A stretch of 13,916 nt of DNA from a virus (lineage: Duplodnaviria; Heunggongvirae; Uroviricota; Caudoviricetes). Position numbers: made by a program. The stretch's first letter is position 1, and every line of letters begins with the position of its first letter. This document shows, in pieces, positions 9,001 to 12,000 of this stretch. The stretch lies in the IMG/VR virus record IMGVR_UViG_2529292908_000015, positions 1 to 13,916 of that record; one strand, written 5' to 3'.

Positions 9001-12000
9001 GGGCATCAGCTCTGAACCGGGCCTGAACAATACAATCCCCATACGCGGGGCAATTTCAGGGGTCAGCAGTGCTCTCACGGTCACCTCAGCAAACGATATT
9101 GAATGCATACAGAGAAAAAACTCAGTCATCACGCAGTAAACTCCTTCACCAGTATTTCAAACTGGCTTACCTGTCCTTCCAGTTCCGCCACGCAATCCAC
9201 CAGCTCATCCACCGCCTTTTGTGTGCGGTGTTTTGCCTGCAGCAGATCACGAAGCGCCGGAGTAAGCTGCTTGCGGAGCGTATCTTTTTTCACGCTCGTT
9301 TTTTCCATCTGTTCAGCACAACGAAGCATCTCCTGCGCCTGCCGACGAAGTTGTTCCGGTGAAACAGTGATTGTTCTGTTGTTCAAAATAAACGCTCCGT
9401 TTTACTGCCCGACATGCGGTTATTGCTGTATCTGCGCGGATTGCCCGGCGTCATGGGTGTGGAAAGAACCCGGGCACTCTCCTGGTCCACAGGCAGAAAA
9501 TGTCCGTTATGAAAACGCCGGTAAATGGTCCCGAGCGTGCCATTACGCTGTTTCGTGATGTTGATTTCTGCTATGCCTCTGGCCTGAGTTTCCGGGTTGT
9601 ATACCTCATCCCTGTAAAGCATCAGAATGATGTCGGCATCCGCCTCGATTTCCCCGGAGTTTTTCAGGTCCGAGTTCATTGGGCGTTTATTGGGTCTGGA
9701 TTCCACGCCGCGGGAGAGCTGGCTCAGAGCAATCAGCGGAAAACCGCCGGATTTTGCCAGGCTTTTAAGTCCCTTTGAGATTTCCCCCACCGCAAGGTCG
9801 TGACGCCCCGTGCTGCGGGTTTTAATCAGGCCGAGGTAATCGACCACCACCAGCGCCGTTTCCGGGTGTTTCATCCGGTGGTGCTTCGTGGTTGCACATA
9901 TCTCATCAATGGTCAGGTTTGCCTGGTCCACCATCCAGATATTACGCCCCGTCATTCGTCCCACGCCCTGCGAGAAACGCGCCCAGTCTTCATCTTCAAA
10001 ACGGGCAACAGACTTAAGACGGGATACCGGCATTCCACCGGCAGCAGACACCATACGTTCACCAATCTGGATGTTCGCCATCTCCATGGTGAACAGAAGC
10101 ACGCCATGCCCCTGCTCAGTCACCTTGTCGATGATGTCCAGCGCAAGTTCGGTTTTCCCCATCGAAGGACGGGCGGCAATGAATACCAGGTCTCCGGGCT
10201 CCATACCGCCCGTTTTTGCGTCCAGTTCATCAATACCGGTCATCAGCGCCCTGGATTTCTCCAGTCCCTGATTGCGGCATTCAACACGGTCGACCACTTC
10301 CGGAAGGACATCATCAATGTGAACCGGCTGAATGACGCCCTTTCCGGTCGACAGTGAGGCCATCATGTTCTGCACATCCTTCAGGGCATCCTCGGCTGCT
10401 TCACAGGTATACGCATCACGTAAATTCTGTAATGCTTCAGTCAGTGTTTTTCTGCATCGCGCAGTGCGGCATTGCGCCGCAACGCTGCGACATAGTGCTC
10501 CAGTGAAGACTTCACCCAGGTTTTGCGTCCGGTGTCGGTAATCACCGGGGCAAGTTCCGGCATCTCATTGCACAGCAGTACGGGGTCAATGACGCCGGAT
10601 ATGCGAGCCTGTCTGCAAATCCCCGCGTAAATATCCCGGTACTGACGCACAAAAAATACATCCGCCGGAAGTGTGGCCAGAATATCCATCACTTCCGGAT
10701 CGGCCCCACGCAGAAAAAACGCACCGATGACAGCGCCTTCCAGGTCATCGTTACGCCATGCCGGGGTGTTCTGGCTGGTCATGCGGCAACACCTCCGATA
10801 CGAGAACGGTAGCTGGGCCAGTTAAACGACAACCAGTTGCGCCCGCCATCGGTGATCCTGTCGGCAATCCGGGGACTGATGAACGCCCACAATTCTTCCG
10901 GTGAAAGATTGCTGATCAAGATAGTTGGCAAAATACCCTCATACCGGGCATTGATAATTTCCTGCAAAATGGCCATTTCAGCCGCACTGCCAAACTGAAC
11001 GCCGACTTCGTCGACAATCAGCAAATCCAGTGACGCATAATGCTCAATGACGTCATCCGCTGTTTTTTCACTGTCATTCCGCCAGCAGTTTTTCACAGCC
11101 CGGGTAAGGCGCATCACGTCGGTGATCTCCACACTGGCCAGATAGTTACGGATGATGTGTTTTGCCATTGATACCGCCAGATGATTTTTCCCGGTACCGC
11201 AACTGCCGGTCATAACAAGACTGGTACCGTTCTCCAGCATATCTGGCCAGTTCTCCGCATAGCGGCGACAGGCCGCAAGATTTCTGGCTGCGTCAGGATT
11301 AACCTCCAGATAATTATCAAACTCGCAGTCCCGAAAACGCAGAGCAATTCCGGCGTTATCAGTCAGTTCTTCCGCCTTGAGGGACGACAGTTCCATGGTC
11401 AAATCACTGGCCTCAGCGATCAAGCAGTCAGGGCAGCATGAAATTTTTTCTCTGTCCTCGCCATTACGATCGATCCACACCAGTATATGCGTACGATATT
11501 TACCGTGTTTTTCGCAATATCCGCGACCTTCACGCATCAGGCAGGAACGATAAGGCCATGGCTTTTCGCCCTTCTGAGCAAATGCAATCTCTGCCCGTAA
11601 CTCATCCATTTCTGCCCGTAACTCATCCATTCGCGCCTGTAGTCTTGTTTGTTTCTCACGTTGGTCAATCGTCATCATCGCTGTCACCTCAGAATGTCAA
11701 TTTGTTACTGGATTTACCGAATTTGTCAGACATGGCTCCCAGGCCAGCCAGGACATCGACCTGTCGCTGTCGCCCACCTCCGTGAGCGGCTGGCTGTTGC
11801 CAGTAATCTTCGAAGTGACGATCGGGTCCAAAGAACGTCGCAGCCTGCTTCACGAACTGTGTGCCGGTATTTCCTGTAGCACGTACCCAGGCGGCATACC
11901 GCTTCACGCCATCAAGCATGGTCTCCGGTTTTATTCCCTCCCTGATACGGGCTTTCCAGGCTTTGAAGGCTGCTGACTTGGAATTGCCACCAGCACGTTT

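What the first reader, a model, noticed from the sequence alone, without database searches (positions are those of the whole stretch)
9383..10782. DnaB-like helicase is split between its N-terminal domain and RecA-like core at a homopolymer
The 113-aa ORF is a DnaB N-terminal domain and the 330-aa ORF is the ATPase core. The ATPase frame stays open upstream of its annotated start and the two frames meet at gaaaaacac (10447-10451). Either the helicase is a recent frameshift pseudogene or the base count in this run is wrong. Everything else in the replication operon is intact and translationally coupled.
Basis: seen in the sequence. Interest (0 to 1): 0.4.

Follow-up and report, generated by a model that had tools for sequence, protein, structure and literature searches.

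The report
Prophage helicase split by one-base miscount
A prophage DNA helicase gene in a draft E. coli genome looks broken in two only because a run of six A's is written as five, most likely a sequencing error, so the finding is ordinary.

Summary
On the minus strand, a 113-aa DnaB N-domain ORF (10782..10441) and a 330-aa DnaB_C ORF (10375..9383) lie in different frames. The frames overlap and meet at a run of five A's (10451..10447).

The window is contig AIFX01000054.1 of the draft genome of E. coli DEC6C. The closest complete genome is identical over all 1400 bases except that it has six A's, which gives one intact 466-aa replicative helicase. None of 240 complete E. coli genomes and none of 83 IMG/VR contigs carrying this site has five A's. 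More than 20 Stx phages and phiP27 encode the helicase in one piece.

The window has five single-base differences in homopolymer runs against near-identical complete genomes. All are contractions: 0/137 runs of 4, 0/44 of 5, 2/20 of 6, 3/7 of 7 or more. One breaks a second gene.

An independent assembly of reads that appear to come from the same strain shortens two more A6 runs. The five-A allele recurs on several haplotypes, almost always in assemblies full of homopolymer deletions.

Best reading: a homopolymer under-call, about 0.8. A real frameshift in a decaying prophage is about 0.17. Nothing supports a functional split or programmed frameshift.

The parts
10447..10451 (-). Run of 5 A (minus strand; T5 on plus) where relatives have 6 A. 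This is the single-base contraction that shifts the frame.
   Evidence: the only difference in 1400 bases from NZ_CP027134.1; 0/240 complete E. coli genomes and 0/83 IMG/VR contigs have A5.
10441..10782 (-). 5' fragment of the helicase gene: 113-aa ORF, 112 native residues plus His, then TGA. Deposited as EHV61536.1, 'hypothetical protein ECDEC6C_2233'.
   Evidence: (PF00772, 7.7e-7).
9383..10375 (-). 3' fragment of the helicase gene: RecA-like DnaB_C core with Walker A motif ARPSMGKT. It is 330 aa from GTG 10375 or 327 aa from ATG 10366. The frame is open upstream to 10564.
   Evidence: (PF03796, 3.1e-74).
9383..10782 (-). The whole helicase gene. With one A restored it encodes a 466-aa DnaB-family replicative helicase.
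   Evidence: collinear alignment of residues 15-429 to E. coli DnaB 34-457, E = 9e-64..
10779..11687 (-). DnaC-like helicase loader (AAA+), translationally coupled to the helicase through an ATGA overlap.
   Evidence: IstB_IS21, 4e-14; DnaC model NF005931, 3.7e-36, below cut-off; annotated 'ATP-binding protein'.
11689..12675 (-). Replication-initiator-like protein (328 aa), first gene of the replication module. It has in-frame 6- and 12-nt length variation in a 12-nt repeat.
   Evidence: (annotated 'replication protein' in NZ_CM129862.1).
9129..9386 (-). 85-aa ORF coupled to the end of the helicase gene through a TTGA overlap.
6800..6805 (+). A6 where relatives have A7. This splits the type I restriction endonuclease-like gene (6424..7580) into two ORFs. 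It is a second gene-breaking homopolymer contraction in the same window.
   Evidence: 3/3 complete genomes have A7 and an intact gene.
6174..6178 (+). A5 where the closest complete genome has A6 (intergenic).
9115..9120 (+). A6 where L001, L006 and L007 have A7 (intergenic, upstream of the DUF968 gene). Also seen in L009, so it may be a real polymorphism.
841..846 (+). T6 where the closest complete genome has T7.

Best explanation
The gene is an ordinary DnaB-family replicative helicase of a lambdoid (Stx-phage/phiP27-like) prophage. It sits in the usual module: initiator, DnaC-like loader, then helicase.

In the deposited draft contig of E. coli DEC6C, a run of six A's is recorded as five. 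That one-base contraction ends the reading frame after residue 112 and leaves the ATPase core in another frame.

The contraction is most likely a base-calling or consensus error of a sequencing chemistry that under-counts homopolymers (pyrosequencing-type). It is probably not a property of the strain's DNA.

Shown: the one-base difference, its restriction to this and other error-prone assemblies, and the homopolymer-contraction signature of the window. Inferred: that the reads, not the DNA, are at fault.
For: 1; the only difference in 1400 bases from NZ_CP027134.1 is A5 versus A6. Restoring the A gives the 466-aa WP_021553033.1.
2; 0 of 240 RefSeq complete E. coli genomes with this site match the A5 probe exactly; 230 sit at 95-99% identity, and all 40 listed rows are at 98.4%, the value one gap gives; 83 of 83 IMG/VR contigs have A6; the intact protein of this exact sequence is on at least 977 contigs.
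3; against the closest complete genomes (99.1-99.5% identity, about 12 kb), every homopolymer-run difference is a contraction of an A/T run of 6 or more. Counts by run length are 0/137 (4), 0/44 (5), 2/20 (6) and 3/7 (7 or more), with no expansions. One contraction breaks a second gene that is intact in 3/3 complete genomes.
4; the complete genomes L001, L006 and L007 differ from each other by 37-236 substitutions but by no change in any run of 6 or more.
5; the Logan assembly of run SRR094133 has 0 mismatches to the window over 4.8 kb, so it is apparently the same strain. It shortens two further A6 runs (11449, 11068) that the deposited contig has as A6. The reads are therefore ambiguous at exactly this kind of site.
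6. A5 occurs in 12 assemblies or runs on at least 4 different haplotypes. Ten of them carry 2-13 additional homopolymer contractions within a few kb and have shredded neighbouring genes.
Against: - No reads could be inspected, and the sequencing platform of DEC6C/SRR094133 could not be confirmed from the held literature.
- The prophage may be a deletion remnant. The methyltransferase is joined to the C-terminal part of tail protein J at about 4878, a junction found in no complete genome. Relaxed selection could therefore allow a real frameshift.
- Two short Logan contigs (L005 from ERR2098938, L021 from SRR1576591; 1.6 kb each) carry A5 with no other contraction. If those runs are Illumina, A5 is real in some strains.
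- A second DEC-batch run (SRR094138, L010) also has A5, on a different haplotype. That fits a systematic error, but recurrent real loss would look the same.
- At least one of the five contractions (9115-9120) is also present in an assembly from another project (L009). It may be a natural polymorphism.
- Real disruption of this helicase does occur elsewhere: the Q138* nonsense allele in L009 and L012.
Confidence: 0.8

Rival explanations
1. The frameshift is real. A slipped-strand deletion of one A in the A6 run inactivated the helicase of a prophage that is already defective in DEC6C, making it a recent pseudogene.
For: - Apart from the one-base deletion, the gene is identical to an intact allele. 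Any real event would therefore be very recent.
- The prophage appears to lack its late genes; the methyltransferase/J junction at about 4878 is private to this assembly.
- Real inactivation of the same helicase exists in other strains: Q138* in L009 and L012.
- Two short contigs carry A5 without other contractions.
- Both the deposited assembly and the Logan assembly of SRR094133 call A5.
Against: - The window shows a length-dependent, contraction-only pattern at homopolymers, including a second broken gene. Complete genomes compared with each other show none.
- A5 is absent from 240 complete genomes and 83 IMG/VR contigs.
- A5 appears on several unrelated haplotypes, mainly in assemblies with pervasive homopolymer deletions. 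That pattern is not expected of an inherited allele.
Confidence: 0.17
2. The split is functional. Either the N-domain and the ATPase core are made as separate proteins (core from ATG 10366 behind AAGGA at 10381-10377), or full-length helicase is made by -1 slippage of tRNA-Lys or RNA polymerase on the A-run.
For: From the sequence only. A -1 slip on G AAA AAC would read ...E K T L T E..., exactly the intact protein. A Shine-Dalgarno-like AAGGA lies 10 nt upstream of ATG 10366.
Against: - The arrangement is not conserved. Relatives have A6 and one open frame, and the AAGGA/ATG is equally present inside their intact genes.
- There is no X XXY YYZ heptamer in the 0 frame.
- There is no unusual downstream RNA structure (z = -0.77; 49 of 200 shuffles fold as well).
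- From established knowledge of DnaB proteolytic fragments, the C-terminal fragment alone retains ATPase activity but not helicase activity.
Confidence: 0.02

Closest known systems
Replicative DNA helicase of lambdoid Stx-converting phages and phage phiP27 (e.g. LC567829.1 'DNA helicase'; NC_003356.1 'replicative DNA helicase' next to a 'DnaC-like helicase loader')
   Same: The restored 466-aa protein is 91-98.7% identical over its full length. Gene order is the same: replication protein, DnaC-like loader, helicase.
   Different: In those phages the gene is one open frame. Here it is interrupted by a one-base shorter A-run.
E. coli DnaB (PDB 6bbm, 7t22) and the DnaB family (Pfam PF00772 + PF03796; TIGR00665; TIGR03600 phage_DnaB)
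   Same: Residues 15-429 align collinearly to DnaB 34-457 (E = 9e-64). The architecture is the same: N-terminal domain, linker, RecA-like core.
   Different: It is a distant paralogue. It scores below the curated NCBIfam cut-offs (308.8 versus 385.25 for TIGR00665; 278.7 versus 498.65 for TIGR03600). It is phage-borne and paired with its own loader.
Homopolymer-length errors of flow-based or nanopore sequencing in draft assemblies
   Same: Single-base contractions occur only in runs of 6 or more. Frequency rises with run length, there are no expansions, and otherwise conserved genes are broken.
   Different: The platform of this assembly could not be verified here. One of the five contractions may be a natural polymorphism.
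dnaX-type programmed -1 frameshifting (A AAA AAG plus a downstream stem-loop)
   Same: An A-rich lysine-codon site where a -1 slip would keep tRNA-Lys pairing.
   Different: There is no heptamer in frame, no stimulatory structure and no conservation. Relatives are simply in frame.

Membership tests
DnaB-family replicative helicase | N-terminal DnaB domain (PF00772) | tested here: met
   113-aa ORF, E = 7.7e-7, 29.5 bits (cut-off 23).
DnaB-family replicative helicase | C-terminal RecA-like domain (PF03796) with a Walker A P-loop | tested here: met
   E = 3.1e-74. ARPSMGKT is visible in the translation and aligns to AARPSMGKT of E. coli DnaB.
DnaB-family replicative helicase | Both domains on one polypeptide, collinear with DnaB | tested here: not met
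   As written, the window has two ORFs in different frames. With one A restored the feature is met.
DnaB-family replicative helicase | Reaches the curated NCBIfam score for DnaB (TIGR00665) or phage_DnaB (TIGR03600) | tested here: not met
   308.8 versus 385.25, and 278.7 versus 498.65. It is a family member at Pfam level but not an equivalog.
Sequencing artefact: homopolymer under-call | The indel is a one-base change inside a homopolymer and is absent from high-quality assemblies of near-identical DNA | tested here: met
Sequencing artefact: homopolymer under-call | The same assembly shows further homopolymer contractions, length-dependent and one-directional | tested here: met
   0/137, 0/44, 2/20 and 3/7, with no expansions. 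One search is the control among complete genomes.
Sequencing artefact: homopolymer under-call | Reads disagree on the run length; the platform is known to miscount runs | not testable with these tools
   No read access. Indirect evidence only: the Logan assembly of SRR094133 contracts two other A6 runs. Platform not found in the held papers.
Genuine inherited pseudogene allele | The allele is confined to one lineage or haplotype and is seen in accurate assemblies | tested here: not met
   A5 occurs on at least 4 haplotypes, 10 of 12 in assemblies with many homopolymer deletions. It is absent from RefSeq complete genomes.
Programmed -1 ribosomal frameshift site | Slippery heptamer X XXY YYZ in the 0 frame | tested here: not met
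   The 0-frame reading is GCA GAA AAA CAC. Only a single-codon A-AAA slip is possible.
Programmed -1 ribosomal frameshift site | Downstream stimulatory structure, and conservation of the two-frame arrangement | tested here: not met
   z = -0.77; relatives are in one frame.

The most novel reading that the evidence does not exclude
The A5 allele is real in DEC6C and in a few other strains, and arises recurrently at this A-run. Low-level -1 slippage on G AAA AAC would then restore exactly the native protein, so the run would act as a crude on/off or attenuation switch for prophage replication.
Probability: 0.02. Interest if true: 0.3.

Novelty: not a real feature. Interest (0 to 1): 0.05.

Why it matters
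It matters mainly as quality control. The split helicase and the deposited 'hypothetical protein ECDEC6C_2233' should not be read as biology, such as a two-piece helicase or evidence of prophage decay, without read-level confirmation.

The window also shows how to recognise such cases. Look for contraction-only, length-dependent homopolymer differences from near-identical finished genomes, and for the same 'mutation' recurring in other error-prone assemblies.

If the frameshift were real, it would be one more inactivated replication gene in a cryptic prophage, which is common and of little general interest.

Tried and rejected
1. Platform of the assembly. I searched the held papers for AIFX00000000, AIFX, GCA_000249635, SRR094133 and DEC6C, and tried to open Hazen et al. 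2012 (J Bacteriol 194:3026, PMC3370608). The paper is not held and nothing else gave the platform. My recollection that the DEC collection was sequenced with 454 chemistry is unverified and is not used as evidence.

2. GTDB species representatives. A scan for the site with A5 or A6 found no match, so it was uninformative.

3. Programmed frameshift. Rejected: no heptamer, no structure, no conservation.

4. Naturally bipartite helicase. Rejected: all close and moderately distant relatives are fused. The only real split found is a nonsense allele, Q138*, in L009 and L012.

5. Mismatch-repair mutator strain as the cause of the contractions. Considered and rejected by inference. Five contractions in about 12 kb would extrapolate to thousands of frameshifts genome-wide.

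6. Other separately called 327-aa core ORFs. Their upstream partners turned out to be a nonsense allele, runs of N, a 10-nt deletion in a 0.6x-coverage contig, chimeric or rearranged contigs, or the same A5. This set is biased by how it was retrieved, so I drew no inference about a breakage hotspot.

Full report
**What is in the sequence**

The genes of interest lie on the minus strand. ORF 10782..10441 encodes 113 aa. ORF 10375..9383 encodes 330 aa from a GTG, or 327 aa from ATG 10366.

Pfam assigns the DnaB N-terminal domain to the first ORF (PF00772, E = 7.7e-7, above the gathering score). It assigns DnaB_C to the second (PF03796, E = 3.1e-74).

The minus-strand text around the junction is GAT GCA GAA AAA CAC TGA. 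The A-run occupies 10451..10447 and has exactly five A's. The frame of the ATPase core is open upstream of its start as far as a TGA at 10567..10565. The two frames therefore overlap across the A-run.

The DnaC-like gene and the helicase overlap as ATGA at 10782..10779. The helicase and the 85-aa ORF overlap as TTGA at 9386..9383.

**Where the window comes from**

An exact look-up of the 113-aa product found it on NCBI contig AIFX01000054.1 of assembly GCA_000249635.2. The reverse complement of the window is 100% identical to that contig over the 11,476 bases fetched.

The protein is deposited as EHV61536.1, 'hypothetical protein ECDEC6C_2233 [Escherichia coli DEC6C]'. The window is therefore a piece of a draft (WGS) genome.

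**What the relatives look like**

The 1400-base region matches 349 complete E. coli genomes.

- The best match (NZ_CP027134.1) differs by a single base, six A's instead of five. Its gene is one 1401-nt ORF annotated 'replicative DNA helicase', WP_021553033.1, 466 aa.
- A 60-nt probe centred on the run found 240 complete genomes with the site. None matched the five-A version exactly; 230 fall in the 95-99% identity band, and all 40 listed rows are at 98.4%, the value one gap gives.
- A pattern scan of IMG/VR that accepts either run length returned 83 contigs, all with six A's.
- The intact protein of that exact sequence is recorded on at least 977 contigs.
- tblastn against phage genomes finds the helicase as one uninterrupted piece at 91-98.7% identity. 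This covers about two dozen phages, mostly Stx1/Stx2-converting phages and phiP27, where it sits next to a 'DnaC-like helicase loader'.
- The restored protein aligns collinearly (residues 15-429) with E. coli DnaB residues 34-457 (E = 9e-64).

**Error or real mutation?**

Reads were not available, so I looked for the signature of the assembly.

*Pattern within the window.* I compared the window with the closest complete genomes: L006 (99.45% over 7.3 kb) and L008 (99.07% over 4.6 kb).

- Every difference in a homopolymer run is the loss of one base from an A/T run that is 6 or more long in the reference. The sites are 841-846, 6174-6178, 6800-6805, 9115-9120 and 10447-10451.
- The remaining indels are 2-, 6- and 12-nt length differences and a 1-nt gap at the end of the L008 alignment, at the junction near 4878.
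- Counted by reference run length, contractions are as follows:

| Run length in reference | Runs | Contracted in window |
|---|---|---|
| 4 | 137 | 0 |
| 5 | 44 | 0 |
| 6 | 20 | 2 |
| 7 or more | 7 | 3 |

- No run is longer in the window than in the reference.
- The contraction at 6800-6805 splits a second gene, a type I restriction endonuclease-like gene at 6424..7580. That gene is intact, with A7, in all three complete genomes that carry it.
- As a control, the complete genomes L001, L006 and L007 differ from each other by 37-236 substitutions but by no change in any run of 6 or more.

*Independent assembly of apparently the same strain.* The Logan assembly of run SRR094133 has no mismatch to the window over 4.8 kb. 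It has the same five-A run and also shortens two other A6 runs (11449 and 11068), which breaks the DnaC-like gene there. The underlying reads are evidently unreliable at A6 runs.

*Recurrence in other assemblies.* The same five-A 'allele' turns up in 12 assemblies or runs on at least four haplotypes.

- Ten of them carry 2-13 further homopolymer contractions within a few kb, and their neighbouring genes are shredded. Several are megabase-scale contigs, two of them under 'hypothetical protein' deposits.
- A recurrent, haplotype-independent, contraction-only change that is absent from curated complete genomes is what a systematic miscount produces. It is not what an inherited mutation looks like.

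**What keeps the real-mutation reading alive**

- The prophage may be a remnant. A truncated methyltransferase gene abuts the C-terminal part of tail protein J at about 4878, a junction no complete genome shares. A replication gene in such a remnant would be free to decay.
- Real decay of this helicase does exist. L009 (an NCTC assembly) and L012 carry a CAG-to-TAG nonsense codon at Q138, giving a 137-aa and a 327-aa ORF.
- Two short Logan contigs (ERR2098938, SRR1576591) have five A's with no other contraction in their 1.6 kb.
- One of the window's five contractions (9115-9120) is shared with L009 and may be a natural polymorphism.

I could not confirm the sequencing platform of DEC6C from the held literature. 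I put the artefact at about 0.8 and a real recent frameshift at about 0.17.

**Functional-split or recoding readings**

A -1 slip of tRNA-Lys on G AAA AAC would regenerate exactly the native sequence. An AAGGA lies 10 nt upstream of ATG 10366.

These are incidental features, because the same bases sit inside the intact genes of all relatives. There is no X XXY YYZ heptamer in frame. The downstream 90 nt fold no better than shuffles (z = -0.77).

From established work on DnaB fragments, a core without the N-terminal domain keeps ATPase activity but not helicase activity. If the frameshift were real, the gene would simply be inactive.

**Mechanism of the intact system (by homology)**

This is a lambdoid replication module. 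It has an initiator-like protein (11689..12675, annotated 'replication protein' in a relative), a DnaC-like AAA+ loader (10779..11687) and a DnaB-family hexameric helicase (9383..10782). The genes are translationally coupled. The phage brings its own helicase and loader rather than recruiting host DnaB. None of this is new.

**Verdict**

The split is best explained as a one-base homopolymer under-call in a draft assembly, so it is not a real biological feature. Interest is low.

Noticed in passing
window 6424-7580 (+), run at 6800-6805: A type I restriction endonuclease-like gene, 385 aa in relatives, is split into two ORFs (6307/6424..6831 and 6774..7580). The cause is an A7 to A6 contraction. 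All three complete E. coli genomes that carry the segment have A7 and an intact gene.
   Followed up: yes
window ~4826-4910: A truncated DNA methyltransferase gene (261 aa instead of 349) directly abuts a C-terminal fragment of tail tip protein J. The tRNA, lysis, head and tail genes of related prophages are missing, and no tRNA was found in the window. No complete E. coli genome spans this junction. It is either a strain-specific deletion leaving a defective prophage or a misjoin in the draft contig.
   Followed up: partly
L009 2584-3984 (GCA_900450255.1) and L012 (GCA_053257815.1): In these two assemblies the same helicase has the A6 run but is interrupted by a nonsense codon (Q138, CAG to TAG). 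This gives a 137-aa N-terminal ORF and a 327-aa core ORF starting 3 nt later. It looks like a genuine substitution-type pseudogene very near the same domain boundary.
   Followed up: partly
window 12056-12127 (inside ORF 11689..12675): The initiator-like gene contains a 12-nt tandem repeat (TCTCTGTAGTAA, 2.7 copies, encoding a TEITTEITTE stretch). It shows in-frame 12-nt and 6-nt length differences between strains. This may be iteron-like origin repeats inside the gene, as in lambda O. Not tested.
   Followed up: no
L019, L022-L025 (GCA_026135705.1, GCA_039615205.1, GCA_039615175.1, GCA_053291565.1, GCA_039615235.1): These chromosome-scale public assemblies have 7-13 homopolymer contractions within about 2-5.7 kb of this prophage module. 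They break the loader, helicase and a DNA methylase into several 'genes' each, and the fragments are in protein databases as hypothetical proteins.
   Followed up: partly
window 11590-11631: There is a perfect 21-nt direct repeat (TCTGCCCGTAACTCATCCATT, two copies) at the 5' end of the DnaC-like gene. It encodes the duplicated MDELRAE motif seen in the translation. Significance unknown.
   Followed up: no
L011 and L024 (ERR13653025; GCA_053291565.1): The helicase core ORF lies directly downstream of Mu-like GemA/Mor genes instead of the usual loader gene. This is either a mosaic prophage or a chimeric contig.
   Followed up: no
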